Source: a virus
Lineage: Duplodnaviria > Heunggongvirae > Uroviricota > Caudoviricetes
Length of the DNA stretch: 64,000 nucleotides
Direction: 5' to 3' (one strand)
IMG/VR virus record: IMGVR_UViG_3300024308_000004
Coordinates: 38,641-102,640 of that record
Below the pieces are notes generated by a model. It saw nothing but the letters and a program-made list of their open reading frames with translations, did not search any database and was not told where the DNA came from. Position numbers and translations under genes: made by a program. The stretch's first letter is position 1; each line of letters begins with the position of its first letter. This document shows positions 26,704 through 42,115 of the stretch, in pieces.

Positions 26704-26706
26704 GGA

Positions 26707-26985: not shown

Positions 26986-27080
26986 TCTAGGGCAGTGAAT
27001 TGTTCAATTAACACCGTGCGATTCTTAAACGCGCCGTGTAAATATTCTCTAAAATCACTGCACACAGACGAGAAAGTAAC

Positions 27081-28315: not shown

Positions 28316-28322
28316 GGCATTC

Positions 28323-28884: not shown

Positions 28885-29006
28885 GACCATAAGAAGTTCT
28901 GCTGTCCAACACCCGCATTAACGTGATGCCGGTGTAAGCAAAGTCCTAGTCGATTACCTCCTAGTTGCCGAATAGGACGGACAGGGCAGCAGAACTTCTT
29001 ATGGTC
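28885..29006. repeat. Perfect 20-bp inverted repeat forming a ~120-nt stem-loop (GACCATAAGAAGTTCTGCTG ... CAGCAGAACTTCTTATGGTC)
   Basis: Arms at 28885-28904 and 28987-29006 in a 310-nt noncoding region. The 3' arm abuts the GAGGAG RBS of the gene starting at 29019. Confidence 0.6.
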
Positions 29007-29018
29007 GAGGAGATTCAC

Positions 29019-29216
29019 ATGTCTGCCAAAGAAGTAGAACTGCCGCGCGGGGATACGTTTGATTCCCAGATGCGCAGGTACACCTTCAGTGAGGGTCAGG
29101 TGCGTGATATCCTGACCATCTATACCCAGAAACAGCAGGATGAAATTGATCGCCTGCGTTCTGAGGTTGACGGTTTGAAAATGAGTATCGCCCTTGCTGA
29201 AATGGGCGATGAATAA
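29019..29216 (+). CDS. Hypothetical protein
   Basis: ATG at 29019 after a GAGGAG RBS (in-frame ORF from 28965). Confidence 0.4.
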   Translation: MSAKEVELPRGDTFDSQMRRYTFSEGQVRDILTIYTQKQQDEIDRLRSEVDGLKMSIALAEMGDE

Positions 29217-29241
29217 CCACAGACGTTGATGGAAAGAAATC

Positions 29242-29592
29242 ATGTCAAAGCCTGATGCGGCGTTGTTCGTTCTGGTAGGCAGGAAGCCGGCCTACAACAA
29301 GATTTTCTTGGCGCCAAAGTCCGCGTTGCAGTGGTGCTATAACGCGGACTACGGTGACCAGCCAATACCAAGGAACGTTCTTGGTGATCTGACACCGTTC
29401 CTGGACTCGGATTACGATGGCGATCCTGCAACGGACACGTTTGACATTACTCCGGGGTCTGCCGATAATGACGTAGCGCTGGCGTTGAGCCAAGTATGCC
29501 GCGCGTTCAAGAGTCCGATTGAAGCGATGGAATATGCGTTCGCGCATTACACCGTCAATTCGGCTGACTGCTACACGGGTCTGGAATATTGA
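29242..29592 (+). CDS. Hypothetical protein
   Basis: 116-aa ORF immediately upstream of the tmRNA gene. Confidence 0.5.
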   Translation: MSKPDAALFVLVGRKPAYNKIFLAPKSALQWCYNADYGDQPIPRNVLGDLTPFLDSDYDGDPATDTFDITPGSADNDVALALSQVCRAFKSPIEAMEYAFAHYTVNSADCYTGLEY

Positions 29593-29927
29593 CCTAGGTT
29601 TATGGTTGTATGACGTGAAGTGAAGGGTGCTTGGACGGTGGTTCAACTCCACCCAGGTCCACCACAAATCAGTCTTAGTCGAGGTGCCGGCGTTACTGGC
29701 TGAGACTGATTTGTAATGGGCCTGCCGGGTTTCGACAGGCGCAGATAGCAGAACCGACAACTAAGGGTAGGCACTCCTTGACGCACACGCGTCGATAGTC
29801 CACAATAAAACATAATCGCCAATGACGACATGTTTGTGGTGGCCCTCGCGGCCTGATCCACTGGGGTCTTGAACGACCTTATTACCCAATAGTTCACGAT
29901 AAGCCCGAGGTCCGCCTCGGGCTTTTT
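29593..29927 (+). ncRNA. ssrA: Circularly permuted (two-piece) tmRNA gene
   Basis: Acceptor piece ending ~29664 with T-arm GGTGG-TTCAACT-CCACC and CAGGTCC-A-CCA. Inter-piece hairpin 29665-29713. Coding piece starts at 29718 with GGGCCTGCCGGGTTTCGACAGG, so G3:U70 plus A73. Tag ORF 29818-29856 (ANDDMFVVALAA then stop). Terminator 29902-29927. Confidence 0.8.
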
Positions 29928-29987
29928 CGTTGTGCAGCATCCCATATTTAACCTAGATATAGTGATTGCACACACTGGAGAACGTCA

Positions 29988-30430
29988 TGACCACGTATGC
30001 AGTAGTTGATCCACGGGATATCCGTGACGACGCGGAGCAGGCTGAACTGGGCCTGACACGACTGCTCGGTATACGGTTCGAGGAACTTGCCGATGAAGTC
30101 TACGAGGACGAAGAAAACAATACCTTCGGATGGTTCGGTCTGCGTAAGGTCCAGAAGCGCTACAGCCGTCGCCAGATCGGTCAGTGGATGCAGGAAATCC
30201 TGAACGACGCACCACGCAGCAAGGACAATGGCATCCGCGATTACTGGTCAGCGCAAGGCACACAGTTCTCCTACGCTGGCTACAAGCATCACGTCATCGA
30301 TCCGGTACGTGACCTGATCCGTGCGGCGCGTGACCTGAACACGCAGGAACTACGCGTTGACGCGCGTACCATGCGTCTGTTTGAGGATGCGTATGCTGCG
30401 GGCGCTCGCCGTTACGAGCCCGAAGAATAA
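29988..30430 (+). CDS. Hypothetical protein
   Basis: ORF; start at ATG 29988 or 29966. Confidence 0.45.
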
Positions 30431-30460
30431 TCAACACACAATCACACGCACATACAAACC

Positions 30461-30967
30461 ATGAAAGCCATTCAGAAAATCATCCTCGACGGGTCGACCA
30501 CGCAAGTGAACCTGATCGACAACGATGCGGTCGAGGTCCACCACGTACCGCTCGCAGAGCTGCCGTTCTTCCTGATCGAACTGGCAGTGACGGACAAGGG
30601 CATCGATGCTGCCGCCACTGCGACGATCACTCACTCGCCGGAAATCGTACAGGCTATCCAGGACGTGAAGACTGCCCTGGCAGGTATCGGACTGGATGCA
30701 ACCACAGCAGGCGTGTTTGCAACGACCTTCTGCGGCGATACCCGGGACGAAATCACTGCCATGTCGGACTCGGTATTGAACGCCATCGCCAAGCTGCTGC
30801 GTGAATCTGGCTTCAAGTCCAAGGCGTTCGATGGACGTTCGTACACGGGCAATCTGACCTGTGTTGAATGGCTGGAAGGATTCCGTTACGGTTTCATCCG
30901 TGCGTCGGATGAAAAGCTCCAGCAGGAACTGGAAGGCATGTTGCAGCCCGAGATTGGTGCATGGTAA
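30461..30967 (+). CDS. Hypothetical protein
   Basis: 168-aa ORF. Confidence 0.45.
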   Translation: MKAIQKIILDGSTTQVNLIDNDAVEVHHVPLAELPFFLIELAVTDKGIDAAATATITHSPEIVQAIQDVKTALAGIGLDATTAGVFATTFCGDTRDEITAMSDSVLNAIAKLLRESGFKSKAFDGRSYTGNLTCVEWLEGFRYGFIRASDEKLQQELEGMLQPEIGAW

Positions 30968-31037
30968 TCAACCGTCATTTCATCATGACGCCGTTTGTTA
31001 CCAGTACATAATACTCACGCAACGCAAACAACTTAAC

Positions 31038-31129
31038 GGGTACGTGACTGAGCTAGGCTTAAGGTGCCGGTCTTGAAAACCGATGACGGGGTGACTCGTC
31101 CGTGGGTTCAAATCCCACCGTACCCTCCA
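31038..31129 (+). tRNA. tRNA-Ser (anticodon TGA), class II
   Basis: Acceptor GGGTACG/CGTACCC plus T plus CCA (perfect). Anticodon stem CGGT/ACCG with loop ctTGAaa. Long variable arm. T-arm GTGGG-TTCAAAT-CCCAC. Confidence 0.85.
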
Positions 31130-31143
31130 CTACAAGGTGTCCA

Positions 31144-31431
31144 ATGGCTGTCAATCTGCAAGACCCGCACTACAAACTGCACGGTGATCCGAAGCAGTTC
31201 CCGCGTTACGCGACCCACGCATGGCGCAATGGTTTCTCTGACTGCGCTGGCATCGTCCAACGTTCGTCAGGTTCAGGTCTCCAGCGTGTCATGTGGGACG
31301 GTTCGTTCCAGCCTGCAATTGATGCCGGTACAGACCTCGACGCATGGATCAGCGACATGATGGGTCGTGCCCGTCAGGTCTCGGGTCTCGCCATCGCTGC
31401 TCTACTCCACGAACACAACCAGGGGAAGTAA
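31144..31431 (+). CDS. Hypothetical protein
   Basis: ATG at 31144 within ORF 31102-31431 (the upstream part overlaps the tRNA). Confidence 0.4.
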   Translation: MAVNLQDPHYKLHGDPKQFPRYATHAWRNGFSDCAGIVQRSSGSGLQRVMWDGSFQPAIDAGTDLDAWISDMMGRARQVSGLAIAALLHEHNQGK

Positions 31432-31433
31432 AC

Positions 31434-31643
31434 ATGGCACAAGCATTCAAGTTCTTCGGCGCGATTCTGGTGGGCCTGTTGTGGCTCTACGCAATCGTGA
31501 TTGAACTCCCGCTGTTGCTCACCGCAGGTGGTCTCAGCTGGCTGTTAGGTGTTGCGCTGGTCGTCCTCAGCGTGACCGTCCCGGCCTTCATGGTCTGGAA
31601 GATTGTCAAGGGCAAAACCAAAACCACCTCCAACAAGGAATGA
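31434..31643 (+). CDS. Small membrane protein (two TM helices), possible partner of the SPFH protein
   Basis: FFGAILVGLLWLYAIVIELPLLL and LLGVALVVLSVTVPAFMVW hydrophobic segments. Ends 9 nt before the SPFH gene. Confidence 0.45.
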   Translation: MAQAFKFFGAILVGLLWLYAIVIELPLLLTAGGLSWLLGVALVVLSVTVPAFMVWKIVKGKTKTTSNKE

Positions 31644-31651
31644 TTCCAACC

Positions 31652-32500
31652 ATGAACAAGTTCATGCGCCTCGGCGCTCTGCTGGTACTGGCCCTGTCGG
31701 CTGTCGCCTGCTCCAAGGTCGAACCGGGTTACGTCGGCGTCCGCGTCAACAACTTCAACGAACGCGGCGTGTCCGGCGAAATCGTCCAGCCGGGCAAGTA
31801 CGTCTACAACGGCCCGGGCTACCAGCTGTATGAGTTCCCGACCTTCAAGCAGAACCACGTCTACAAGGACGACACTGCCATCTCGTTCGGCACTGTCGAA
31901 GGTCTGACCGTCACTGCTCCGATCGGCGTGTCGTACCGTGTCGAAGGCTCCCTGGCTCCGAAGCTGTTCCAGGACTACCGCAAGGGCGTCGATGAAATCA
32001 CTGCCGTCGACCTGCGGAACATCATCCAGAACTCCTTCGTCAACGTCGCCGGTACCCGCAAGATCGAGACCGTCTACGGCCAGGGCAAGAAGGACCTGAT
32101 CGATGAGGTCAAGAAGCAGGTGACCGCGCGTGTCAAGGTCTCGGGCCTGACCATCGATGACGTGTACTGGGCCGGCAATCCGCAGCTGCCGCAGTCGGTG
32201 ACCGCGAGCATCAACGCCAAGATCGCCGCGACGCAGATGGCTGAACAGCGCCAGAACGAGGTCGCCCAGGCAAAGGCCGAAGCTGAAAAGCAGGTCGCAA
32301 CCGCGCAGGGTGAAGCGGACTCTCGTCTGGCAGTCGCAAAGGCTGAAGCCGAAGCGATCAACATCAAGGGCGAAGCGCTGCGCAACAACGCCAACCTGGT
32401 CGATCTGACCATCGCAGAGAAGTGGGACGGCAAGCTGCCTGAGCAGTACCTGGGCGGTGGTGGAAACGACGGCAAGATCCTTCAGATCATGCGCAAGTAA
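31652..32500 (+). CDS. SPFH/band-7 (prohibitin/HflKC-like) domain lipoprotein
   Basis: Signal peptide with lipobox LSAVAC. An SPFH-like core followed by an Ala/Glu/Gln-rich coiled-coil (EQRQNEVAQAKAEAEKQVATAQGEADSRLAVAKAEAEAI). Confidence 0.7.
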   Translation: MNKFMRLGALLVLALSAVACSKVEPGYVGVRVNNFNERGVSGEIVQPGKYVYNGPGYQLYEFPTFKQNHVYKDDTAISFGTVEGLTVTAPIGVSYRVEGSLAPKLFQDYRKGVDEITAVDLRNIIQNSFVNVAGTRKIETVYGQGKKDLIDEVKKQVTARVKVSGLTIDDVYWAGNPQLPQSVTASINAKIAATQMAEQRQNEVAQAKAEAEKQVATAQGEADSRLAVAKAEAEAINIKGEALRNNANLVDLTIAEKWDGKLPEQYLGGGGNDGKILQIMRK

Positions 32501-32526
32501 TCCAGCACAACGTCGGTAGTAAGACC

Positions 32527-32556
32527 GAGCCCTGGGGCTAACACCCTGGGGCTTTT
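32527..32556 (+). terminator. Putative terminator (CCCTGGGG quasi-palindrome pair plus T tract)
   Basis: ccctggggctaacaccctggggcttttt. Confidence 0.5.
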
Positions 32557-32635
32557 TGTTGCCTGTAAATTATTCAACGCCCGTTTAGACCCTCACTTAT
32601 ACTTACATTGTCATCACGCAACAGGAGTAAATGAC

Positions 32636-32854
32636 GTGGCTACGTTGTTGGAAATGAAACAGAAGTCCACCCGGGAACACATGAAGATCATGCAGGCGTG
32701 GCTGGACGGCAAGACCATTCTGGTCCGTCTGATGGATTCCGACAAGTGGATCGAGACTCGCTACCCGTCGTGGAATTTCACTCACTACGAGTACCGTATC
32801 CTGGGTGAAGAACCCGCAGGTAACGACGCTGAGGAGGATGCCCGTGTCGCGTAA
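32636..32854 (+). CDS. Hypothetical protein
   Basis: Short ORF (GTG start). Confidence 0.3.
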   Translation: MATLLEMKQKSTREHMKIMQAWLDGKTILVRLMDSDKWIETRYPSWNFTHYEYRILGEEPAGNDAEEDARVA

Positions 32855-33035
32855 GGAATTGCCGTTGTTGAACAAGACCCTGGCTGAGGCTGCGGATATC
32901 CTCAACGATGCCGGTCATTCGTTCCGTATCGTCAAGCGTGACGGCGTGCCGTACGTTGTGACCTGCGACCACAATATCAATCGTTGCAACCTGACCCTAC
33001 TGAACGGGAAGGTTGCAGAATACAAGTGGGGTTAA
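32841..33035 (+). CDS. Hypothetical protein
   Basis: Internal ATG of ORF 32805-33035. Confidence 0.3.
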   Translation, partial: PVSRKELPLLNKTLAEAADILNDAGHSFRIVKRDGVPYVVTCDHNINRCNLTLLNGKVAEYKWG

Positions 33036-33237
33036 TATGGCATTGCAGCCAATAGACTTCGTGGACCAGCCTGAAACGCAGACTGGTCAGAAGCAAGTAA
33101 CCGTCATGGCAGCAGCTGCCGTGTATGGCCAGTCGTACAACGCCGCGCGTGCAAGGGGCTTGACTCCAGTTGACTCACGTGCCGAAGCCCGTGCAGCAGC
33201 GCAGGACTTCCTGCACATGGAGTTTGAACGTGAGTAA
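33013..33237 (+). CDS. Hypothetical protein
   Basis: 74-aa ORF. Confidence 0.3.
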   Translation: MQNTSGVNMALQPIDFVDQPETQTGQKQVTVMAAAAVYGQSYNAARARGLTPVDSRAEARAAAQDFLHMEFERE

Positions 33238-33242
33238 GACCA

Positions 33243-33463
33243 TGTGGAAAATCTGGTTCTCTATCGTCTTCGCTCCTCTGATTATTGGCTGCGCGCTGCT
33301 GGGCTGCACGCGCCAAATCGATCCGACCACCGGTCGTCCAGTCACTACGCTGGATGGACTTCCGAACCCGGTTGATCGTGCTGCTGAGGCTTGCAAGGCC
33401 GGTGGTAAGACCCTGAAATCCTACAAGGACACCTCGTCGGGTGTCGAATTCACCTGCGAGTAA
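33243..33463 (+). CDS. Small lipoprotein
   Basis: MWKIWFSIVFAPLIIGCALLGC signal peptide with lipobox, then a Cys-containing mature part. Confidence 0.4.
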
Positions 33464-33805
33464 GAAGTCCTTGAAACGCGCTAAGAAGCCTGCATCGAAT
33501 CACCCTTGGCGTGCCAACTTCGGCACGACCAAGCAACACCATGCCAATGACCGTCGTCGTGACGCCATTATTCCCCTCCACGCTAAACCGGTGAAGTAAG
33601 TGTCCCTTTCCGAACTCGATCTGCTCCGCGCAGAAAATGCCATCCTGCGCGCAGCGCTCACCAAGATTAAAGATGGTGTTGACTTCCCTCAGCAACTTGC
33701 GCTCCAGGTTATCGACCCTGAGGGTTACGAAAAATTCCAGGACTCGCTGTATGCCGACATTTTCGGCAACGGCGACGGCGCCACTTCATAAACAAGGAGT
33801 AGAAC

Positions 33806-34234
33806 GTGACCGAGAACAAACTCCACACCGCAGTAATGGAAGCTGTTAGTCTCCTGAACGGAGTCCATATGGGCGACGATAAGACGGGAGGGATATTTTC
33901 TGCACACAATATCCTGCGCAAGGCTTTGATTGATTACGCCGACGAGGCTTTGCAGATCAGTGACCAGCCAGCTGGTCACGAAATGGTCGTGATGCTGTAC
34001 GAAACTGGCGCGCCCAACTACTACGTGGAACGGATCGTGACCGACCATGACCCGCGTGAAGTCGAGGTCATCGCCCGTTACATCGACGGTGAAACTCCGG
34101 TTGAACAGTTGGCTGTAGCGAAAGCCAAGCTGGACAACTACGAGAAGACCTTGGGGCGCATCGCAGAAGGTCACGCCGCACCCATGTTGCTCGCGCGGGC
34201 CGTGTTGTCGGGTGCGAACTGGGACGTGAAGTGA
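33806..34234 (+). CDS. Hypothetical protein
   Basis: GTG start after an AAGGAG RBS. Confidence 0.4.
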   Translation: MTENKLHTAVMEAVSLLNGVHMGDDKTGGIFSAHNILRKALIDYADEALQISDQPAGHEMVVMLYETGAPNYYVERIVTDHDPREVEVIARYIDGETPVEQLAVAKAKLDNYEKTLGRIAEGHAAPMLLARAVLSGANWDVK

Positions 34235-34620
34235 TGGACGACGCGCATCCCAACACCATCAACGACCTGTTGGCCATCATCCATCGTGATGGTGGTCACT
34301 ATCAGGAAGAACACGGTCTGGAAGAAGCCTTGCGTCGTGCTGCGGAAATCGTGGTCAACGAACGCGCCCGCTTGGAACTCCAGGAGCGCATGAACGGTCA
34401 AGCGTTTCGTTCCGGCATGACAACTGGCCGAAACATCGCCAACATGGAGCGCCTGGGTGCACAGCCTATCAACGGCGAGGTCGAAGAACTTACCGCTCGC
34501 GTCAACCGTTACTCCAATGCGCTGTCGATCATTCGCAATGGCGATCCAATGCCGGAACGTATCGCGGACGAAGCGTTGTACGGCGAGCAACGTGCAGCCA
34601 TCGGTGTAGTACGTGGGTAA
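34231..34620 (+). CDS. Hypothetical protein
   Basis: 129-aa ORF. Confidence 0.4.
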   Translation: MMDDAHPNTINDLLAIIHRDGGHYQEEHGLEEALRRAAEIVVNERARLELQERMNGQAFRSGMTTGRNIANMERLGAQPINGEVEELTARVNRYSNALSIIRNGDPMPERIADEALYGEQRAAIGVVRG

Positions 34621-34743
34621 GCCGACACACTACTTGGTACGCTTCGCACGACCTGGAGGTGGCATCGACCGTCTGATCGTAAAGAAGCCACGCAACGCTA
34701 AGAAGGAGGTTGATCCCAGCCTCATTCTTAGCGTTGTTCCTAT

Positions 34744-35601
34744 TTGGGAAATCAAAACAGGCAGGGCATACAAGTGACCATCAAGATCACTCCAATCAGT
34801 GACACCCATCAGGAATTTGGCGAGTACGAAGCTGGGTTCGGTGAAGGCGACGTGTGCGTGCTGGCTGGTGACAACAACGTCGCCTTGCATCTGGCATCCA
34901 ACAACGAAATCATCCTGGCCCGTGACATGCTGGGTCGTGCGCAGCGCCAGATTGCGAAAGCATTGGAGACGCACGATCATGTGGTGATGATCGCTGGCAA
35001 CCACGAACACTACGCCGGGTTCTTCAATCTCACCCATCGGATCATGCGTGACAAACTGGGCTCCGAGCGCGTGCATATCCTGGACAAGGAAACCTGGCAC
35101 CATAAGGGCGTTGATTTCTACGGCGCTACCATGTGGACTGACATTGCCGGTGGTAATCGCAAGGCGATTGATCGTGTGCATCAGGGCATGATGGACTATC
35201 AGGAAATCTGGATGCACGATTCGTTCCAGTCCCCGCCTGAGCGCAAGCTGCATCCCTTGGACACCATTGAGGATCACTTGCAGGCCATGATTGCCTTGCA
35301 AGAAGCGCGCGAAGCAGCACGCGAGAATTCAAACCGTCTCGTGGTTGTCACGCATCATGCTCCAAGCCCTAAGTCATTGCTGCCCAAGTATCAAATAGGT
35401 GGCAAGTACGCCGCGCTGTCCCCTGCGTATTATTCTGATCTGGAACACGCAATGCCCGGTGTTGATCTGTGGATTCACGGTCACATGCACGACACGTTTG
35501 ACTACCGGGTGGGTGACACGCGTGTGGTTTGTAACCCATGTGGGATTCTGGGTCACAGGCTGAATCTCAGTTTCAATCCCAAACTTTCTATCGAGGTATA
35601 A
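34744..35601 (+). CDS. Calcineurin-like metallophosphoesterase
   Basis: Motifs PISDTHQ, VLAGDNN, IAGNHEHY, VVVTHHAP, WIHGHMHD. Start position uncertain. Confidence 0.6.
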   Translation: MGNQNRQGIQVTIKITPISDTHQEFGEYEAGFGEGDVCVLAGDNNVALHLASNNEIILARDMLGRAQRQIAKALETHDHVVMIAGNHEHYAGFFNLTHRIMRDKLGSERVHILDKETWHHKGVDFYGATMWTDIAGGNRKAIDRVHQGMMDYQEIWMHDSFQSPPERKLHPLDTIEDHLQAMIALQEAREAARENSNRLVVVTHHAPSPKSLLPKYQIGGKYAALSPAYYSDLEHAMPGVDLWIHGHMHDTFDYRVGDTRVVCNPCGILGHRLNLSFNPKLSIEV

Positions 35602-35602
35602 A

Positions 35603-35956
35603 ATGACAAAGCAAGAACGGCGCCTGAACCTGGGCCTGGGTATCTTCGCAGCAATGGTCTTCGCAGGCAGCATCTTGCAGTGGAGTATCGTTGCGTTCCT
35701 GGTGGGACTGATTGTTGCCATCGCCATGATCTTCTGTCTCATGGGGCTGTGGGCTTCGATGGACGATGAATGGGTTGCCAAGCAACGCTTCCAGAAGACA
35801 CCCATCTGGAAGTACGTGTACGACCTGGCGATCCTGGCCATGTTGAGCGTGCCCAGCACCAATGCAATCGCCATCATGTACGCCATCAACTTCGCAATGG
35901 CTTTGCACATCAAGTACCGTTACAACCGAGTCAATCGGATCGTATCGAGCAAGTAA
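35603..35956 (+). CDS. Membrane protein (3-4 TM helices)
   Basis: Hydrophobic segments LGLGIFAAMVFAGSILQWSIVAFLVGLIVAIAMIFCLMGLWA and AILAMLSVPSTNAIAIMYAINFAMAL. Confidence 0.45.
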   Translation: MTKQERRLNLGLGIFAAMVFAGSILQWSIVAFLVGLIVAIAMIFCLMGLWASMDDEWVAKQRFQKTPIWKYVYDLAILAMLSVPSTNAIAIMYAINFAMALHIKYRYNRVNRIVSSK

Positions 35957-36180
35957 TCTGCGGATCGATTTTAAAGCGCATGGGGCTCGCTCTGTGCGCT
36001 TTTCTTTTGCGCGACGATAAGTGATCGCAGTCAGCACAGGAAGCAGCTTAGAACGCGTCCCACGAGCTTGGGCCCGGGCTGGGTAAATTCTATCACCGGA
36101 CCAGTATAATGCTTTTGACGTTAACACCAGTAAGTTACCTGTTTAAACTACAAGCAACTAACTACTTACTGGAGCGGTTT

Positions 36181-36486
36181 ATGCGGACCCGGTTACTTGC
36201 AATCATTGCGGCGCTGGCAATCTCCGGCGTGACCCAAGCTGCTACGGTGTTCAAAGCGACACCTGCACCCGGCTCCAAGTCTGAACTGGAGCTGACGGAC
36301 GAACCAATCATCCAGTGTCCGGCTGGGACCAACTACGCTTTTGGAAAGCTGCACGACGGTACACCCGTCGAAGGCTGCTGGGTCTACAACGCTCGGCAAA
36401 ATGTCGTGACGTTCTTCCGACTGCCTGCTTACACCAAGATCGAAATTCCTGCCTACGTTTTCAAGCGAGTGGAGCAACCCATCTAA
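36181..36486 (+). CDS. Secreted small protein
   Basis: Signal peptide MRTRLLAIIAALAISGVTQA/A. CCAGTATAAT promoter-like motif 70 nt upstream. Confidence 0.45.
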   Translation: MRTRLLAIIAALAISGVTQAATVFKATPAPGSKSELELTDEPIIQCPAGTNYAFGKLHDGTPVEGCWVYNARQNVVTFFRLPAYTKIEIPAYVFKRVEQPI

Positions 36487-36689
36487 TGTTCACCACCGGT
36501 TCTTACATGTTCCCGCGTGTGTCGATTTGGGGTGACTGGATCCTCCCGACACTTGATAAGGTACGCAAGTGGCTCACAACCGGCCGTACCAACTCGCGTG
36601 GACCCAGCGGTCCACGTCATTATCGACCGGCATATCGCTAAATCGTCCCGCGCCGCCGGGCACTTTCCCGCAACTCCATAGAGGATCAC

Positions 36690-37139
36690 ATGACTGAAAC
36701 TACCAAACCCACCCTGCGTGAAGAAACCGAATTGGCTTTTGTTGAGTACGGTTTCCAGTTCAATCAGGCTGAATTCTTATCCCGGATCGCCAGCAACCCG
36801 TTGTTCGCTGCCATCCAGCGTGAGCAAGACCGTCAGGTTGCAAAGTGGGGCGTGCAGGATCACCCGTCATTCGATGCTGGTGCTGACCTGGAAGAACGTC
36901 AAGGTCTTTCTAACACCATCAAGTCGATGGTCGACGCCAGTGCCAAGCGAGGGACCTTGGTCTGGGAAGAAATCATGTCCGAAGAAGTCGCAGAGGCCCT
37001 TGCGGAACTGAACGACGACGAAGCTCTCAAGACCGAACTGATCCAGATTGCAGCCGTTGCGCTGTCGTGGGTCGAGTCCATCAATCGCAAGGAGTCCGCA
37101 GGTGGCGATCAAGTCCCCGAAGTTCAAGCCGCCGAGTAA
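36690..37139 (+). CDS. Possible MazG-like all-alpha NTP pyrophosphohydrolase
   Basis: REQDRQVAKWG and EEVAEALAELNDDEALKTELIQIAAVALSWVESI helices resemble the MazG/HisE-type EExxE metal-binding helices. Weak assignment. Confidence 0.3.
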   Translation: MTETTKPTLREETELAFVEYGFQFNQAEFLSRIASNPLFAAIQREQDRQVAKWGVQDHPSFDAGADLEERQGLSNTIKSMVDASAKRGTLVWEEIMSEEVAEALAELNDDEALKTELIQIAAVALSWVESINRKESAGGDQVPEVQAAE

Positions 37140-37418
37140 AACAACGGGCGCTAACGGCGACAAGATTGAGATTTACGGGTGGAACAAGACCTGTAAGTAT
37201 TGTGGCAAGGCTGATCTGCGTTGGGTTGGTGTAACCAACGCAGATACCGGCACCAAGAAGTGGTCGCTTGAAGAACGGGACTCGACAACGCCATCTGGTG
37301 TGCGAGTCCATCGTTGCCCTGCGTACACTGCAAGAGACAAAGCGCGAGAAGAAGGACTCGACCCGGCAACGGTTGTTACTCCTAGCGCACCCACACAAGA
37401 AAACTACGGAGAGTGGTA

Positions 37419-37754
37419 ATGAACAAGGTTTTGATCGCATTCCAGGCCGATTACGCCGATGAATTCGACGTGTACGGCTGGGCTGTGCGTGACCAGGATT
37501 ACTGGGAGAAGTTCCAGGCACAAGCTGCCGCGTGGTTTGCAAACAACCCCGGCAAGACGCTGGAGTTCTGGTTTGGTGGCAATGAAGTCATCGAATTCGA
37601 CAGCCTTGAGGACTTCCAGGCAGCGTACGCTGCCAAGCCCATCACTGACGAACAGGCAGATGGGATCGTCGGCGTCTGGGGTGATCTGGCGACACAACCT
37701 CGTTTGGGCGTTACTTACGGCCACTTCTGTGAGCCATCGGAGTTCGGCGAATGA
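37419..37754 (+). CDS. Hypothetical protein
   Basis: ATG overlaps the upstream stop (TAATG). Confidence 0.4.
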   Translation: MNKVLIAFQADYADEFDVYGWAVRDQDYWEKFQAQAAAWFANNPGKTLEFWFGGNEVIEFDSLEDFQAAYAAKPITDEQADGIVGVWGDLATQPRLGVTYGHFCEPSEFGE

Positions 37755-38134
37755 ACGAGAACATGATGCTGAACCCTGGCGAGTCCATTCTGTTTATGTC
37801 CAACGGTTCGGGCGGCAAGATGGTGAACACCACGCGCGTGTTCACGACTGTGGAAGAATTCCGCAATTACGTGCGCGAGAACGCCAACATCATGGAGGCG
37901 TACCCGGGCCGCAAAGTCGGCGACACGGTTCATTCGTACACCTACACGTATGGCCCACGAAAGGGCTCGACCAGTCATACGATCCTGGTTCGTGAAGGTC
38001 ATCATGTGTCGATGTGGGGTCAGTTCTACGTCGCCAGCCCCGACAAGCCACCCAAGCGCTTTGAACTGACTGCCGAAATGATCGGAATGGTCAGTGTCAA
38101 GACCAAAACCAAGAACATCAAGCCGAGTACCTGA
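37751..38134 (+). CDS. Hypothetical protein
   Basis: 127-aa ORF. Confidence 0.4.
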   Translation: MNENMMLNPGESILFMSNGSGGKMVNTTRVFTTVEEFRNYVRENANIMEAYPGRKVGDTVHSYTYTYGPRKGSTSHTILVREGHHVSMWGQFYVASPDKPPKRFELTAEMIGMVSVKTKTKNIKPST

Positions 38135-38135
38135 T

Positions 38136-38447
38136 ATGACCCGCGTTGTCGAAGCTCATCCGAAAGTCCTGGTGATGCGCAATCCCAAGACCGAATCCAA
38201 AGAAAAGTTCATGGCTCGTGCCGAAGAACTCGCAGATCGGCTGTACGAGGAGCCGGTTGAGGCTGAGACCGTGGAAGAGTCGGTCGAGGAAACGATCCAG
38301 ACCATACGCTCGGTGAAAACCGAACTGGACTACTTGCGTTGGTGGCACAACAACTTCGGTTCGGATGACACGGACGTGCGAGCAACGATGAACGCCCGTT
38401 ACGTCGAGGCAGGTGGGATAATCCCCGAAGGCTACCAAAATGAGTAA
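38136..38447 (+). CDS. Hypothetical acidic protein
   Basis: ATG at 38136 within ORF 38094-38447. Confidence 0.4.
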   Translation: MTRVVEAHPKVLVMRNPKTESKEKFMARAEELADRLYEEPVEAETVEESVEETIQTIRSVKTELDYLRWWHNNFGSDDTDVRATMNARYVEAGGIIPEGYQNE

Positions 38448-38782
38448 GTGGACGCCTCGTGTTGGTCAGCGCGTGCAATTGAATAAGGTGGGGTATGCAA
38501 CGCTTCACCTGACTTCCAACGAAGCGCATGAACAAGCCAAGCAAATGGTGATTACGGATGTGGAGAACCTCGGGTACGCACATGCGCCCATCTGGGCCAT
38601 CGAGGTTGACCAGCCGCTTATCAATGTTTTCCTCCTCGACTCGTCAATGGTCGACCCACTCTTTTGAGGTGTCTATGATCGGCTTCATCAAAGCAATCAT
38701 CCAAATGATTCGTGACGGTTTCGCGCTGCATCATGCGGCTCACCGTCGTCACGGTGGCAACCCCTGGAAATAAGGAACCAAT

Positions 38783-39940
38783 ATGTGTATCTCCGAACTG
38801 CATGGTGGCCGTATCAAGCTGTGGACTCCGATCCACGAGGTTGAATCGGCTGCCCTGGACCAACTCAAGAACATCGCCAACCTGCCGTGGATGTTCAAGC
38901 ATGTGGCAGCGATGCCGGATGTTCACTTCGGCAAGGGTGCGACCGTGGGCAGCGTCATCGCCATGCAAAACGCCGTGTCGCCTGCTGCGGTAGGTGTTGA
39001 CATTGGTTGTGGCATGGGTGCCGTGCTGACGAACCTGACTGCAAAAGACCTGCCGGAATCGCTGCGTGAAATCCGTGCGCAGATCGAACGGGACGTGCCG
39101 GTCGGCTTCAACCGTCATGATTCCGGTCTGACGTTGGGTGCCAAGTCTGTCATGCACACCTTCAAGGACCTGCGTGCGCCCGTATCCACCGTCGAAAAGA
39201 CGGCTCACTGTCAGATCGGTACGTTGGGTGGTGGTAACCACTTCATCGAAATCTGTCTGGACACTACCGACCGCGTGTGGGTGGTGTTGCATTCGGGTTC
39301 GCGCAACATCGGCAAGACGTTGGCTGAGCATCACATCGCCATCGCACGCAAGCTGATCCACAACGAGACCCTGCCGGACCGAGACCTGGCTGTGTTCCTG
39401 CGTGGCACCAAGGAGATAGATGATTATCGCCATGACCTGATGTGGGCGCAGCAGTACGCGTTTGAGAACCGCGCCCACATGAAGGAACTGGTGATGGCTG
39501 CGATCAAGCGGCATATTCCGCATCTGTCCGAAGTGGATTACATCGCGTGTCACCACAACTACGTGTCCGAAGAAACTCACTTCGGCGAAGACGTAATCGT
39601 GACCCGCAAAGGCGCGATTTATGCTGGTCGTGGCGTGTACGGGATCATCCCGGGTTCAATGGGCACCAAGTCGTACATCGTCCGTGGCCTGGGCAACGAG
39701 GAATCGTACTGCTCGGCATCACACGGCGCTGGTCGTCGCATGTCGCGTGGCGCCGCAAAGCGTGCGTTCACCAAGGAAGACCTGGCCGAGCAAACCCAGG
39801 GCGTTGAGTGCCGCAAGGATGAAGGTGTGATCGATGAAATCCCGGCAGCATACAAGGATATCGATCAGGTGATGGAGAACCAGAAGGACCTGGTCGAAGT
39901 CGTGGCTGAACTCAAACAGGTCATGTGCGTAAAGGGGTAA
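38783..39940 (+). CDS. rtcB: RtcB-family RNA 3'-phosphate/5'-OH ligase
   Basis: Signature HFGKGATVGSV, metal-binding C (DIGCGMG), GGGNHFIEI, HSGSRNIG, and an HHNY region containing the catalytic His. Confidence 0.85.
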   Translation: MCISELHGGRIKLWTPIHEVESAALDQLKNIANLPWMFKHVAAMPDVHFGKGATVGSVIAMQNAVSPAAVGVDIGCGMGAVLTNLTAKDLPESLREIRAQIERDVPVGFNRHDSGLTLGAKSVMHTFKDLRAPVSTVEKTAHCQIGTLGGGNHFIEICLDTTDRVWVVLHSGSRNIGKTLAEHHIAIARKLIHNETLPDRDLAVFLRGTKEIDDYRHDLMWAQQYAFENRAHMKELVMAAIKRHIPHLSEVDYIACHHNYVSEETHFGEDVIVTRKGAIYAGRGVYGIIPGSMGTKSYIVRGLGNEESYCSASHGAGRRMSRGAAKRAFTKEDLAEQTQGVECRKDEGVIDEIPAAYKDIDQVMENQKDLVEVVAELKQVMCVKG

Positions 39941-39942
39941 CC

Positions 39943-40179
39943 ATGAAAGCATCTGATGCCAAAGCCCTCTCGGAAAAGAACACCATTCCGACCGAACTGG
40001 AAATGCAAGCCATTTACAACGCCATTCGTGGGCGTTGTTTGATGGGTAAGCGTGACCTTTACATCAATTGGCCCGGAAAGGCAGTCGCCATCATTGCCAT
40101 CCTGCGCAACAAGGGCTACAAGGTTGATATGAGCCCCACCCGACAGCCCGGTCCCGACCAAATGCGAATCTCGTGGTAA
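39943..40179 (+). CDS. Hypothetical protein
   Basis: ATG at 39943 within ORF 39925-40179. Confidence 0.35.
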   Translation: MKASDAKALSEKNTIPTELEMQAIYNAIRGRCLMGKRDLYINWPGKAVAIIAILRNKGYKVDMSPTRQPGPDQMRISW

Positions 40180-40221
40180 AACATCCCGACGTATAGTAAT
40201 TACACACAACGGAGACAAAAC

Positions 40222-40713
40222 GTGACAAAGAAACGCCTTTTCGTGGACCTGGACGGTGTATGTGCCGGGTTCGATGAACATTACCTGGCCACATTCGGCA
40301 AGGACCTGCGTGAAGGCGCAGTTTCGGACGAAGAACTGTGGGCGAATGTGGATTCGTATGAAGGTGACTTCTTCTACGATCTGCCGGTCTTACCCGGTAC
40401 GCAGGAAGCCCTGCAAACGCTGCGTGATTGCGGCTATGAAATCGTCTACCTGACTGCGTGCCCGGCCAGCAATTACGGTTACGTAGCACAACAGAAGCAC
40501 GACTGGGTGCGGATGAAGCTGGAAGATCAGGATGCCCTGGTCATTCCCATCGTCGGTGGCAAGAACAAAGCCAAGCTGATCCAATTCCAGGGCGACGTTC
40601 TGATCGATGACTTCCACAAGAACACCCAGGCGTGGGCCGATGCTGGTGGCGAACCGATCCTGCATACGGATTGGGCCAAGTCACTACTGACGCTGGAAGC
40701 CCTGCACGCGTAA
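40222..40713 (+). CDS. HAD-family 5'(3')-deoxyribonucleotidase-like
   Basis: FVDLDGVCAGF (DxDxV motif I) and the later VLIDD motif, as in NT5C-type deoxyribonucleotidases. Confidence 0.65.
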   Translation: MTKKRLFVDLDGVCAGFDEHYLATFGKDLREGAVSDEELWANVDSYEGDFFYDLPVLPGTQEALQTLRDCGYEIVYLTACPASNYGYVAQQKHDWVRMKLEDQDALVIPIVGGKNKAKLIQFQGDVLIDDFHKNTQAWADAGGEPILHTDWAKSLLTLEALHA

Positions 40714-40766
40714 TACGCCCCGCGCCGCCGAGACAAAAACGATAACTCCATACAGAGCAAAAGATC

Positions 40767-41627
40767 ATGCCGCATCTGCAAATGTTCAACCACAAAATTC
40801 GTCGGATGGATCAACCGTTCGATGACACCAAAGCCAAAATTATGATTTCGTTGGCCTACGAATGGTCCGAAAAGTGGTATTGGTGGTGGTTCGCCGATCA
40901 CCCGAACGAACTGGCGTGGCGTTGCGTTGGTAACGATATCCAGGTCAAGATCGAAGGCAATTGGACTGATGCGATCTGGCTGGGTTCGGAAAGCTCCGAG
41001 TGGGTCAACATCATTCGGAGCGACACGTACACGGACGCTTATATCCAGATTCTGGACGGTCGCGTGCATGATACGTGCTTTGCCATCTGGGAAAAGAGCG
41101 ACATTGAGTCCAACTACGGTGCGCTCAACAAGGAATACTTCGCAACGGTCGGCAAGACCCACAAGGGTCGGGGTTGTAAGAACATGCCAGACTTCACCAA
41201 GGATCAGCTGGAAACCCTGCGCAAGAAGATCGGTGACCGTTATCTGGAGTGCGCGAAGCGCTGGTTTGAGCGAAACGACGTGGATGCCAAGTACGAAATG
41301 GAGTACCACGCTGGTCGTCTGGCTGAAATTGGCTTCAAGCCTCCGGAACACAATTACACCAAGCCCGACCCCATTGTAGTCCCGGTGTATCATTACGAGG
41401 GTGCGACGTTCATCACTGATCCTGAGGAAACGCATAATGGCGACAGTGCTTGCGAATGCGCCAAGTGCGACCACAGCCAAGATGCTTACGAGGACGAGGA
41501 TTCGTGCAGTTGCGACAATTGTATGGATAATCTGGACCACTGGACGAGCAATGGTCGCAATCCTGACCACTGCAACTTCTGTAAGGAGTTCGCCAAGCAT
41601 ATTGGTCATGACGAAGAGGAGGACTGA
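40767..41627 (+). CDS. Hypothetical protein with Cys/His-rich acidic C-terminus
   Basis: CECAKCDHSQ ... CSCDNCMDNLDHW ... HCNFCKEFAKHIGH cluster. Confidence 0.45.
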   Translation: MPHLQMFNHKIRRMDQPFDDTKAKIMISLAYEWSEKWYWWWFADHPNELAWRCVGNDIQVKIEGNWTDAIWLGSESSEWVNIIRSDTYTDAYIQILDGRVHDTCFAIWEKSDIESNYGALNKEYFATVGKTHKGRGCKNMPDFTKDQLETLRKKIGDRYLECAKRWFERNDVDAKYEMEYHAGRLAEIGFKPPEHNYTKPDPIVVPVYHYEGATFITDPEETHNGDSACECAKCDHSQDAYEDEDSCSCDNCMDNLDHWTSNGRNPDHCNFCKEFAKHIGHDEEED

Positions 41628-41755
41628 TGGAAGAATGTTGTAATTGTGGTTGCGAAGTGTACGAGGAAGATGTAACTTGGGATGACGACGGCCAGCCGTG
41701 GTGTCCTGATTGTGCCGAAATGCACGACATTGAACAGTACGACGAAGCAGCCTAA
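41627..41755 (+). CDS. Small zinc-ribbon protein (42 aa)
   Basis: CCNCGC ... CPDC motifs. Under 60 aa. Confidence 0.3.
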   Translation: MEECCNCGCEVYEEDVTWDDDGQPWCPDCAEMHDIEQYDEAA

Positions 41756-42073
41756 ACTACAGAGACGCAATGGTTCGCTACGGGTTGCGTCTCCGTTTAT
41801 GTCATCGTAGCGAGCTACTGCAACAACCCGGCAATAAAGGTAAGCGCATGGGAAAGACGTATCGCAAAGAAAAGCCTCAGTACAAGAAGGCCCGTGAGGA
41901 CGACGCCGCACACAAAAAGGTCGATCATGACCACGAGCGGACAACAGCACGACGCCAGATGCGTGAGGTTTTACAACACGACTGGGAGGATGAGGAAGAT
42001 GAGTGAGAAGGGCACAGTGATCGACAACGGCGTTGAAGGCTAAAAAGTCCGATTAAATCTGGCTTTTCAAATC

Positions 42074-42115
42074 ATCCCGCGTTATTCTAGGACTTTAGTT
42101 CTAGGAGCGCGGGAT
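42074..42115 (+). promoter_or_regulatory. Hairpin sequestering the HNH start codon and RBS
   Basis: ATCCCGCG ... CGCGGGAT inverted repeat. The 3' arm contains the RBS TAGGAG and the AT of the ATG (42114). The inner region carries TTCTAGG direct repeats. Confidence 0.4.

What the first reader, a model, noticed from the sequence alone, without database searches (positions are those of the whole stretch)
38783..39940. RtcB RNA ligase in a phage with its own tRNAs and tmRNA: candidate tRNA-repair, anti-anticodon-nuclease function
The clear RtcB motifs are HFGKGATVG, GGGNHFIEI and HSGSRNIG. RtcB seals 2',3'-cyclic-phosphate or 3'-phosphate ends to 5'-OH ends, which are exactly the products of anticodon nucleases (PrrC, RloC, colicin-like, VapC/MazF-type) that hosts use in abortive infection. 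Combined with the tRNA island, the RlmN-like enzyme and the tmRNA, the window encodes a translation-maintenance toolkit. The RtcB-based branch may be a counter-defence, analogous to T4 Pnk/Rnl1 but using the RtcB chemistry.
Basis: partly seen in the sequence, partly recalled or inferred. Interest (0 to 1): 0.6.

Follow-up and report, generated by a model that had tools for sequence, protein, structure and literature searches.

The report
Phage RtcB RNA ligase, ordinary
The flagged gene is an intact RtcB RNA-sealing enzyme in a Stenotrophomonas phage; hundreds of phages carry the same kind of gene, and the idea that it mends host-cut tRNAs was published in 2011 but has not been tested experimentally in any paper found here.

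Summary
Observation confirmed. Window 38783-39940 (+) encodes a 385-aa RtcB. It matches Pfam PF01139 over its full length (415 bits). All mapped metal-binding, GMP-histidine and phosphate-binding residues are present and invariant in 121 clade members. The predicted fold matches only RtcB structures. dN/dS against its two closest orthologues is 0.07-0.08.

The window is a ~109-kb Stenotrophomonas siphophage, ~85% nt identical to ANB28 and BUCTxx99, where the orthologue is already annotated as RtcB. 703 of 50,697 GenBank phage records carry a homologue.

The tRNA-repair counter-defence reading is plausible but not new (Pope 2011, Nielsen 2017, Iyer 2021), and no experimental test of a phage RtcB was found.

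New here:
- RtcB lies in a ~22-kb lineage-specific accessory block with 12 tRNAs, a permuted tmRNA and an RlmN/Cfr-like gene. Pseudomonas phage nickie has only 2.1 kb at that position.
- tRNA genes are denser around phage RtcB genes than around a control gene, but only as a trend after dereplication (p = 0.058).
- ANB28 has lost seven tRNAs and the tmRNA yet keeps RtcB, so RtcB does not depend on them.
- No RtcA, archease, Pnkp or second ligase was found.

Verdict: new member of a known kind; low interest.

The parts
38783..39940 (+). rtcB: 385-aa stand-alone RtcB 3'-phosphate/2',3'-cyclic-phosphate to 5'-OH RNA ligase. Predicted active-site residues are D73, C76, N152, H153, H170, H258, H314 (GMP acceptor), R318, R322 and K384.
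   Evidence: Pfam 415 bits; residue mapping onto P. horikoshii RtcB from the alignment; invariance in 121 sequences and dN/dS 0.07-0.08; AF2 model pLDDT 88, with Foldseek returning only RtcB structures, TM 0.82.
38765..38775 (+). Likely ribosome-binding site (AAGGAA) 8-12 nt upstream of the rtcB ATG. There is no promoter or terminator signal above chance around the gene, which sits inside a long co-directional gene array.
   Evidence: Sequence read. The promoter/terminator scan found 5 and 5 sites against 5.1 and 8.1 expected.
23299..31129 (+). tRNA island (Lys-UUU, His-GUG, Tyr-GUA, Asn-GUU, Gln-UUG, Trp-CCA, Thr-UGU x2, Ile-GAU, Pro-UGG, Leu-UAA, Ser-UGA), in the same accessory block as rtcB. 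These are candidate substrates or replacement tRNAs; the association is by co-location only.
   Evidence: ARAGORN (12 tRNAs) and Rfam (11; tRNA-Tyr not confirmed). The block is conserved in BUCTxx99, JGB6 and L003 and partly deleted in ANB28.
29572..29947 (+). Permuted (two-piece) tmRNA gene with tag ANDDMFVVALAA, in the same accessory block.
   Evidence: ARAGORN tmRNA*; Rfam tmRNA_permuted at 88 bits against a gathering score of 47. Present in BUCTxx99, JGB6 and L003; deleted in ANB28.
27081..28040 (+). RlmN/Cfr-like radical-SAM protein (CxxxCxxC motif), in the same accessory block.
   Evidence: PDB hits to RlmN and Cfr at E = 2e-18. Pfam Radical_SAM scores 28.9 bits, just under the 29.5 cutoff. 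Orthologues are 80-94% identical in JGB6, ANB28 and BUCTxx99, and there is none in nickie.
19867..42113 (+). A ~22-kb lineage-specific accessory block between the Rad50-like gene (17950-19866) and HNH/RuvC (42114-43135). It holds dCMP deaminase, the tRNAs, the RlmN-like gene, the tmRNA, SPFH, Metallophos, rtcB, NT5C and many small ORFs.
   Evidence: Synteny with Pseudomonas phage nickie, where the Rad50-like-to-RuvC gap is 2.1 kb and none of these genes is present.

Best explanation
The gene encodes a catalytically competent, stand-alone RtcB ligase, transcribed with the early/middle + strand genes of a virulent ~109-kb Stenotrophomonas siphophage. By the established RtcB mechanism, His314 is guanylylated with GTP and two Mn2+ ions (held by D73/C76/H153 and C76/H170/H258). 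The GMP is transferred to an RNA 3'-phosphate, after hydrolysis of a 2',3'-cyclic phosphate if needed, and the 5'-OH end attacks to reseal the strand. Its most likely role in infection is to reseal translation RNAs, above all host (and phage) tRNAs cut in the anticodon loop. The cuts would come from metal-independent RNases of abortive-infection or toxin systems: PrrC-like, colicin-like, HEPN or MazF-type enzymes. That would keep protein synthesis running until lysis. Shown here: family, fold, an intact active site, purifying selection, and residence in an accessory block with tRNAs, a tmRNA and an RlmN-like gene. Inferred: the substrate (tRNA) and the counter-defence role.
For: Family and active site. 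The metal-ligand and His-GMP assignments follow PMC10630183. Selection: dN/dS 0.07-0.08 against orthologues with dS about 0.55. Lineage: the clade is phage-borne across unrelated phage types, namely the 109-113-kb DnaE phages, a T4-like 159-kb phage, a 69-kb PolA phage and a 201-kb jumbo phage. That suggests repeated horizontal spread of a self-sufficient gene. Association with translation RNAs: in 80 viral RtcB loci (+-10 kb), 37 have at least 1 tRNA, 18 have at least 3, and 5 have a tmRNA. Nine have a tRNA within 300 bp of RtcB, and 228 of 247 tRNAs are co-directional with it. Around the control genes (ThyA/RNR/exonuclease), 8 of 42 loci have at least 1 tRNA, 2 of 42 have at least 3, and none has a tmRNA. 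In this lineage RtcB, the tRNAs, the tmRNA and the RlmN-like gene share one accessory block that phage nickie lacks. Bacterial RtcB is linked to damaged tRNAs in vivo (PMC7790460 abstract). The T4 Pnkp/Rnl1-versus-PrrC precedent is established knowledge.
Against: No experiment on any phage RtcB was found. After dereplication the tRNA enrichment is only a trend: 20/43 against 5/20 clusters with at least 1 tRNA, density 1.52 against 0.37 per 10 kb, Mann-Whitney p = 0.058, Fisher not significant. The control was also sampled differently, with single-protein queries instead of an alignment. ANB28 lost seven tRNAs and the tmRNA but keeps RtcB, and 43 of 80 RtcB loci have no nearby tRNA, so there is no obligate link to phage tRNAs. 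In the window, RtcB is 7.65 kb from the nearest tRNA, and its immediate neighbours are nucleotide/DNA-metabolism genes (NT5C, HNH, RuvC, RNR). No anticodon nuclease is known for the Stenotrophomonas host; this was not tested. Deleting host rtcB had no effect on PAK_P3 plating on P. aeruginosa (PMC4933390), so RtcB is not generally needed for phage growth.
Confidence: 0.55

Rival explanations
1. Ribosome or mRNA repair rather than tRNA repair. In this reading RtcB reseals 16S/23S rRNA or mRNAs cut by colicin-E3-like, MazF-like or HEPN RNases and works alongside the phage tmRNA, which rescues ribosomes stalled on broken mRNAs.
For: RtcB2-PrfH repairs colicin-E3-cut 16S rRNA (PMC9304027, PMC9223846, PMC13166195). 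A tmRNA lies within 10 kb of RtcB in 5 of 80 viral loci against 0 of 42 control loci, and a tmRNA is in the same block in this lineage.
Against: The protein scores far below the cutoffs of the PrfH-linked RtcB equivalogs: 175 against 407 bits for NF007153 and 147 against 272 bits for TIGR03073. No PrfH-like or RF domain was found in the 50 window ORFs scanned. ANB28 keeps RtcB without the tmRNA.
Confidence: 0.15
2. A DNA-end transaction. RtcB would join or cap DNA 3'-phosphate ends (DNA3'pp5'G capping, or 3'-P DNA to 5'-OH joining) during phage DNA replication or repair, or to protect phage DNA ends.
For: RtcB can use 5'-OH DNA strands in vitro (PMC8051266 abstract). M. xanthus RtcB3 caps DNA and RNA 5'-phosphate ends (Maughan & Shuman 2015, cited in PMC10630183). 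In all four phage types examined, RtcB sits among DNA-replication or nucleotide-metabolism genes. In the window these are NT5C, HNH, RuvC and RNR. In other phages they are gp44/45/59/32, RNR/MazG/5'-3' exonuclease, and an ATP-dependent DNA ligase next to RtcB in 16 of 85 loci.
Against: Early/middle phage regions routinely mix such genes, and no DNA-repair neighbour is conserved in more than 16 of 85 loci. The tRNA and tmRNA co-location points to RNA instead. Every in vivo role known for RtcB is on RNA.
Confidence: 0.1
3. Maturation of the phage's own RNAs. RtcB would ligate processed phage tRNA or tmRNA precursors (splicing-like or permutation-related joining) and so would not be a counter-defence at all.
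For: RtcB is the tRNA-splicing ligase in archaea and metazoa (established knowledge). RtcB abuts tRNA genes (within 300 bp) in 9 of 80 phage loci, and the tmRNA here is of the permuted type.
Against: The window tRNAs detected by Rfam match the tRNA model over its full length, with no sign of an intron. Permuted tmRNAs function as two pieces and need no ligation (established knowledge). ANB28 lacks the tmRNA and seven tRNAs but keeps RtcB under purifying selection. Many RtcB phages have no or only one tRNA.
Confidence: 0.05
4. The tRNAs, tmRNA, RlmN-like gene and RtcB are not a functional 'toolkit'. The tRNAs would be codon-usage compensation for a 54% GC phage in a ~66% GC host, and RtcB merely shares the phage's general accessory-gene region.
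For: Six of the 12 tRNAs (Lys-UUU, Gln-UUG, both Thr-UGU, Pro-UGG, Leu-UAA, Ser-UGA counted by anticodon type) have U34 anticodons that read A-ending codons. Window genes have GC3 of 0.64 and use AAA 23%, CAA 31%, ACA 11%, CCA 13% and TCA 10%, whereas Stenotrophomonas is ~66% GC with very high GC3 (general knowledge; not measured here). The block also holds dCMP deaminase, SPFH, NT5C and about 40 unrelated small ORFs. The components are lost independently.
Against: This does not explain the cross-phage tendency of RtcB to sit beside tRNA genes. The tRNA set also overlaps classic anticodon-nuclease targets (Lys, Tyr, His, Asn, Gln). The two explanations are not mutually exclusive.
Confidence: 0.15

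Closest known systems
Phage-encoded RtcB-like RNA ligases (PHROG 1075), e.g. Stenotrophomonas phages ANB28 and BUCTxx99, Xanthomonas phage JGB6, subcluster K1 mycobacteriophages, Sphingobium phage Lacusarx, Burkholderia phages BcepSauron/Saruman
   Same: Same family and architecture: a single-domain, 385-400 aa stand-alone gene. It is 93.5% identical to the ANB28 and BUCTxx99 orthologues, 64% to JGB6 and 45-57% to many others. The functional speculation is the same, and in Lacusarx so is the co-location with tRNAs and a tmRNA (PMC3203893, PMC5648845, PMC7824862).
   Different: Nothing of substance. This copy lies 7.65 kb from the nearest tRNA, not adjacent to one. None of these phage enzymes has been characterised biochemically or genetically in the papers found.
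E. coli / Salmonella RtcB of the RtcR-regulated rtcBA RNA-repair operon
   Same: The same chemistry is expected (GTP/Mn2+, 3'-P or 2',3'>P plus 5'-OH), it is a short bacterial-type protein, and it is probably archease-independent. It is linked to damaged tRNAs in vivo (PMC7790460).
   Different: There is no RtcA and no RtcR/sigma-54 control here. The gene is carried by a phage. The sequence is only distantly related: its nearest cellular relatives, at 55-66% identity, are stand-alone genes in actinomycetes, Microbulbifer and myxobacteria.
T4 Pnkp + Rnl1 tRNA repair against the PrrC anticodon nuclease
   Same: The proposed biological logic is the same: a phage enzyme reseals tRNA cut in the anticodon loop by an abortive-infection RNase.
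   Different: The enzymes are unrelated and the route differs. T4 heals the ends (3'-phosphatase and 5'-kinase) and then seals with an ATP-dependent ligase, whereas RtcB joins the ends directly in one GTP-dependent enzyme. No Pnkp or Rnl was found in the window. The T4 system is proven experimentally; this one is not.
RtcB2-PrfH ribosome-repair module
   Same: An RtcB-family ligase that reverses a ribotoxin cut in translation machinery.
   Different: The window protein scores far below the equivalog cutoffs, and no PrfH partner was found.

Membership tests
RtcB (PF01139) 3'-phosphate/5'-hydroxyl nucleic acid ligase | Full-length match to the family profile above the curated threshold | tested here: met
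   415.4 bits against a cutoff of 27, covering profile positions 1-426 of 426; PHROG 1075 at E = 1e-140.
RtcB (PF01139) 3'-phosphate/5'-hydroxyl nucleic acid ligase | Two-metal site: Asp95, Cys98, His203, His234 and His329 in P. horikoshii numbering | tested here: met
   These align with D73, C76, H153, H170 and H258 (alignment). The residue roles follow PMC10630183. All five are invariant in 121 clade sequences.
RtcB (PF01139) 3'-phosphate/5'-hydroxyl nucleic acid ligase | Nucleotidyl-acceptor histidine (His404 in P. horikoshii) in the S-H-G-A-G-R motif | tested here: met
   H314 lies in SASHGAGRRMSR and aligns with CHGAGRVLSR; it is invariant.
RtcB (PF01139) 3'-phosphate/5'-hydroxyl nucleic acid ligase | RtcB fold | tested here: met
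   AF2 model with pLDDT 88.1 and pTM 0.88. The 16 significant Foldseek PDB hits are all RtcB, with TM 0.82 to 1uc2; the next hit has E = 0.35.
RtcB (PF01139) 3'-phosphate/5'-hydroxyl nucleic acid ligase | GTP/Mn2+-dependent sealing of 2',3'-cyclic-P or 3'-P ends to 5'-OH RNA ends | not testable with these tools
   This needs biochemistry. M. xanthus paralogues show that family members can differ in activity (RtcB3 caps 5'-P ends; cited in PMC10630183).
PrfH-associated RtcB2 (NF007153 / TIGR03073) | Score above the equivalog cutoff and an adjacent prfH gene | tested here: not met
   175 bits against a cutoff of 407, and 147 against 272. No release-factor domain was found in the 50 window ORFs scanned.
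rtcBA / RtcR RNA-repair operon | RtcA cyclase and the RtcR regulator next to rtcB | tested here: not met
   Neighbours within +-4 kb are small ORFs with no match, plus NT5C, HNH, RuvC and Metallophos. There is no RtcA in the ORFs scanned.
Archease-dependent RtcB (archaeal/metazoan type) | Archease gene present in the same genome or operon | tested here: inconclusive
   No archease among the 50 window ORFs scanned with Pfam (most + strand ORFs of about 115 aa or more outside the annotated replication genes). The other ~45 kb of the phage genome and the host were not examined.
Phage anti-anticodon-nuclease repair system (functional class, T4 Pnkp/Rnl1 paradigm) | The phage gene restores growth on a host that expresses a tRNA-cleaving abortive-infection nuclease | not testable with these tools
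   Only circumstantial evidence exists: co-location with tRNAs and a tmRNA.

The most novel reading that the evidence does not exclude
RtcB would be one component of a horizontally mobile 'translation-maintenance island' that phages assemble repeatedly as a layered counter-defence against translation-targeting immunity. The island would supply replacement tRNAs, a permuted tmRNA, an RlmN/Cfr-like RNA methylase, an RtcB sealing enzyme and possibly a 285-aa metallophosphoesterase as an end-processing partner. The layers would be to replace, modify, repair and rescue. In this lineage the whole island would have been inserted between the Rad50-like and RuvC genes, and tRNA + tmRNA + RtcB clusters recur in unrelated phages.
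Probability: 0.25. Interest if true: 0.5.

Novelty: new member of a known kind. Interest (0 to 1): 0.2.

Why it matters
If a phage RtcB were shown to reverse tRNA or rRNA cleavage by a host defence nuclease, it would be the second mechanistic class of phage RNA-repair counter-defence, after T4 Pnkp/Rnl1. It would also help explain why RtcB is scattered across more than 700 sequenced phages. That experiment is still worth doing, and a virulent Stenotrophomonas phage of therapeutic interest (an ANB28 relative) would be a reasonable system for it. This particular gene adds no new concept, however: it is a typical, already annotated orthologue, and the hypothesis is 15 years old.

Tried and rejected
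1. Partner enzymes. Pfam or PHROG scans of 50 window ORFs found no RtcA, archease, Pnkp, Rnl1/2, Hen1, CCA-adding enzyme, PrfH or Ro/TROVE protein. The HAD protein at 40222-40713 looked like a possible Pnkp-type phosphatase, but it is an NT5C 5'(3')-deoxyribonucleotidase (E = 3e-35 against 4e-4 for the polynucleotide-kinase PHROG).

2. Metallophos partner. The 285-aa metallophosphoesterase (34744-35601) has full-length homologues near RtcB in L003 and in a T4-like phage. The family occurs in only 6 of 85 RtcB loci and has no PDB relative, so I rejected it as a general partner.

3. YAcAr domain proteins. They recur downstream of RtcB in 3 of the 4 contigs first examined, but there is none in the window.

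4. Conserved neighbours in general. ORF clustering over 85 viral and 80 cellular loci found none present in more than 16 viral or 12 cellular loci. Those found are DNA ligase, T4 RNase H, ClpP, HD_4, AurF, a DEAD helicase and the like.

5. Recent capture from the host. No Stenotrophomonas genome is among the best 80 genomic hits; the nearest cellular relatives are 55-66% identical, in actinomycetes, Microbulbifer and myxobacteria.

6. Significance of the tRNA linkage. It looked strong before dereplication (Fisher p = 0.003 and 0.011) but was not significant afterwards. Two control queries (5'-3' exonuclease and NrdA) returned only 1 and 3 loci, so the control set is small.

7. Pseudogene or relic. 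Rejected on dN/dS of 0.07-0.08.

8. Promoter and terminator scan. Nothing above chance.
Full report
**Observation.**
The ORF at 38783-39940 (+) exists exactly as described: 385 aa, an ATG start, and an AAGGA Shine-Dalgarno-like element 8-12 nt upstream. The protein matches Pfam RtcB (PF01139) over the whole profile (E = 4e-124, 415 bits against a cutoff of 27). It also matches PHROG 1075 'tRNA splicing ligase' (E = 1e-140) and the solved RtcB structures from T. thermophilus, P. horikoshii and human (E = 1e-34 to 1e-26). The 319-aa antisense ORF that overlaps it is a by-product of the coding frame.

**Active site and fold.**
I mapped the alignment onto P. horikoshii numbering. The roles of the residues follow the review PMC10630183.
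- Mn-site ligands Asp95, Cys98 and His203 correspond to D73, C76 and H153.
- Mn-site ligands Cys98, His234 and His329 correspond to C76, H170 and H258.
- The GMP-acceptor His404 corresponds to H314.
- N202, R408, R412 and K480 correspond to N152, R318, R322 and K384.

All of these residues are invariant across 121 clade members. An AlphaFold2 model (pLDDT 88, pTM 0.88) retrieves only RtcB structures from the PDB. The best match is 1uc2 at TM 0.82, and the first non-RtcB hit has E = 0.35. Against the orthologues in ANB28 and BUCTxx99 (87-88% nt and 93.5% aa identity), dN/dS is 0.07-0.08 at dS of about 0.55. This is an intact enzyme under selection.

**Which RtcB is it?**
It is a short (385 aa), single-domain, stand-alone RtcB. 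It scores far below the cutoffs of the PrfH-linked RtcB2 equivalogs. Its best NCBIfam match is an intein-containing RtcB-related family, minus the intein.

A homologue search shows a tight clade of 384-404-aa proteins that are 66-100% identical, many on contigs of phage-genome size. One is an identical protein on a 109,689-bp contig, already labelled 'tRNA-splicing ligase RtcB' by JGI. Members of the clade sit in quite different phage types:
- a 113-kb relative of this phage;
- a T4-like 159-kb contig carrying gp32, gp44, gp45 and gp59;
- a 69-kb PolA phage;
- a 201-kb jumbo phage.

Cellular relatives are 55-66% identical and are found in Nocardia, Lentzea, Streptomyces, Microbulbifer, Minicystis and others. 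No Stenotrophomonas genome is among the best 80, and the cellular copies have unrelated, lineage-specific neighbours. The gene was therefore not recently captured from the host, and it behaves as a self-sufficient mobile unit.

**The genome.**
The window is ~85% nt identical to Stenotrophomonas phages ANB28 (108 kb, a siphovirus; PMC11881566) and BUCTxx99 (109 kb). In both, the orthologue is already annotated as RtcB. By its DnaE polymerase, the wider lineage includes Xanthomonas phage JGB6 (72%), Rhizobium RHEph10-like phages (44%), Pseudomonas phage nickie (40%) and SSU5-like phages.

Nickie has a replication module syntenic with the window. However, only 2.1 kb separates its Rad50-like gene from RuvC. 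It has three tRNAs and no RtcB, RlmN-like gene, SPFH, 285-aa Metallophos or tmRNA. In the window, the same interval (19867-42113, about 22 kb) holds:
- dCMP deaminase;
- 12 tRNAs;
- the RlmN/Cfr-like radical-SAM gene (PDB E = 2e-18);
- a permuted tmRNA (Rfam 88 bits);
- SPFH, Metallophos, RtcB and NT5C;
- many small ORFs.

JGB6, BUCTxx99 and the 113-kb contig all carry this block. RtcB is thus part of a lineage-specific accessory block that also holds the translation-related RNAs.

**Partners.**
Pfam or PHROG scans of 50 window ORFs found no RtcA, archease, Pnkp, Rnl, Hen1, CCA-adding enzyme or PrfH. The adjacent HAD protein is an NT5C deoxyribonucleotidase, not a Pnkp-type phosphatase. ORF clustering across 85 viral RtcB loci found no neighbour family in more than 16 loci. 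A 285-aa metallophosphoesterase recurs near RtcB in three phage types but in only 6 of 85 loci overall. RtcB appears to act alone, which fits its one-enzyme chemistry.

| Measure | 80 viral RtcB loci (+-10 kb) | 42 control loci (ThyA/RNR/exonuclease) |
|---|---|---|
| At least 1 tRNA | 37 | 8 |
| At least 3 tRNAs | 18 | 2 |
| tmRNA present | 5 | 0 |

tRNA density is 1.88 per 10 kb around RtcB and 0.15 per 10 kb around ThyA. In addition, 9 RtcB loci have a tRNA within 300 bp of RtcB, and 228 of 247 tRNAs are co-directional with it.

After dereplication into 43 RtcB clusters and 20 control clusters, the enrichment persists: 47% against 25% with at least 1 tRNA, and density 1.52 against 0.37 per 10 kb. 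It is not statistically secure, though (Mann-Whitney p = 0.058; Fisher not significant). The control was also sampled differently, with single-protein queries instead of an alignment. I treat this as a supportive trend, not a demonstration.

Against an obligate link, ANB28 has deletions covering window 23318-24690 (seven tRNAs: Lys, His, Tyr, Asn, Gln, Trp, Thr) and 28523-29957 (the tmRNA). It still keeps RtcB at 93.5% identity. In addition, 43 of 80 RtcB loci have no tRNA within 10 kb.

**Mechanism.**
[quoted passage not shown] Its most likely substrates are tRNAs of the infected cell cut by metal-independent RNases of abortive-infection or toxin systems.
- Shown here: family, fold, active site, purifying selection, spread across phage types, and co-location with tRNAs and a tmRNA.
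- Inferred: the substrate and the counter-defence role.

From general knowledge of nuclease chemistry, RtcB could reverse PrrC, colicin E5/D/E3, MazF and HEPN-type cuts. It could not reverse PIN (VapC), Toprim (PARIS AriB, OLD) or HNH-type (PtuB) cuts, which leave 3'-OH and 5'-P ends. Nor could it reverse RloC, which removes the wobble nucleotide.

The rivals are rRNA or mRNA repair together with the tmRNA, a DNA-end function (its neighbours are DNA and nucleotide-metabolism genes, and RtcB can use DNA ends in vitro; PMC8051266), and maturation of the phage's own RNAs, which the ANB28 deletions make unlikely. Separately, the tRNA set may simply be codon compensation. Half of the tRNAs have U34 anticodons for A-ending codons, and the window genes have GC3 of 0.64, in a host known to be ~66% GC (not measured here).

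**Novelty.**
A tblastn search finds RtcB homologues in 703 of 50,697 GenBank phage records, most already annotated as RtcB or tRNA-splicing ligase. The interpretation has also been published several times:
- Pope et al. [quoted passage not shown] - Iyer et al. 2021 state that phage tRNAs are 'supplemented' by RtcB and ATP-grasp ligases that ligate cleaved tRNAs (PMC7824862).

I found no experimental test of any phage RtcB. Deleting host rtcB had no effect on PAK_P3 plating (PMC4933390).

**Verdict.**
This is a new member of a known kind, of low interest as a discovery. It remains a fair target for the experiment that has not yet been done.

Noticed in passing
window 29572-29947 (+): A permuted (two-piece) tmRNA gene with tag ANDDMFVVALAA (ARAGORN; Rfam tmRNA_permuted at 88 bits) in a phage of a gammaproteobacterium. 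From general knowledge, gammaproteobacterial hosts normally have one-piece tmRNA. Related phages carry variants: BUCTxx99 ANDDVYVVALAA, JGB6 VTANDSYFEVALAA and the 113-kb contig ANDSYYGAERLAA. ANB28 has lost it.
   Followed up: partly
window 27081-28040 (+): An RlmN/Cfr-like radical-SAM protein with a CxxxCxxC motif (PDB E = 2e-18 to RlmN and Cfr; Pfam Radical_SAM just under its cutoff). It is 80-94% conserved in the lineage and absent from nickie. ANB28 annotates it as RlmN; BUCTxx99 labels the orthologous ORF 'prohibitin family protein', which looks like a mis-annotation.
   Followed up: partly
window 19867-42113: A ~22-kb lineage-specific accessory block inserted between the Rad50-like gene and HNH/RuvC. 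The same junction is only 2.1 kb in Pseudomonas phage nickie. The block carries the tRNAs, tmRNA, RlmN-like gene, SPFH, Metallophos, RtcB, NT5C, dCMP deaminase and about 40 small ORFs.
   Followed up: yes
window 23318-24690 and 28523-29957, compared with ANB28 (L001): ANB28 lacks these two segments, which hold seven tRNAs and the tmRNA, although the rest of the block is ~80-87% identical. The tRNA and tmRNA repertoire therefore turns over quickly between close relatives. BUCTxx99 has an HNH endonuclease gene and a tRNA-Met inside its island instead of tRNA-Tyr.
   Followed up: yes
window 34744-35601 (+); L003 11341-12162; L005 11167-11952: A 285-aa calcineurin-like metallophosphoesterase (PHROG 1649, no PDB relative by sequence). 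Full-length homologues (25-34% identity) lie within ~4 kb of RtcB in a 113-kb relative and in a T4-like phage. The family is present in 6 of 85 RtcB loci overall. Its function is unknown, and it is too infrequent to call a partner.
   Followed up: partly
L003 10669-10762; L015 ~19459; L051 ~5678; L067 ~8150: ARAGORN calls suppressor-type tRNAs ('tRNA-Stop' with anticodon tta; 'tRNA-Pyl' with cta) within 10 kb of RtcB in several unrelated phage contigs. This is a possible hint of stop-codon recoding in those phages.
   Followed up: no
window 39925-40179 (+): An 84-aa ORF that overlaps the rtcB stop by 16 nt (PHROG 8208, unknown function). It lies in a segment (39942-40179) that is absent from ANB28, so it is a small indel directly downstream of rtcB.
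   Followed up: partly
window 8060-8767 (+): A 235-aa protein with a Sigma-70 region 2 match (E = 1e-5), which suggests a phage-encoded sigma factor in the replication module.
   Followed up: no
L215 (Xanthomonas phage JGB6, OQ436456.1 30001-80000): Many conserved genes (DnaE, Rad50-like, RNR alpha and beta, ThyA, Metallophos, SPFH) are annotated as two to five fragments. This is probably frameshift sequencing error in that record. Its tRNAs and tmRNA are not annotated, but ARAGORN finds them.
   Followed up: partly
L005 10276-10686; L006 9446-9898; L008 7995-8402: A YAcAr (PF10686) domain protein lies 1-4 kb downstream of RtcB in three unrelated phage contigs. No homologue is present in the window.
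   Followed up: partly
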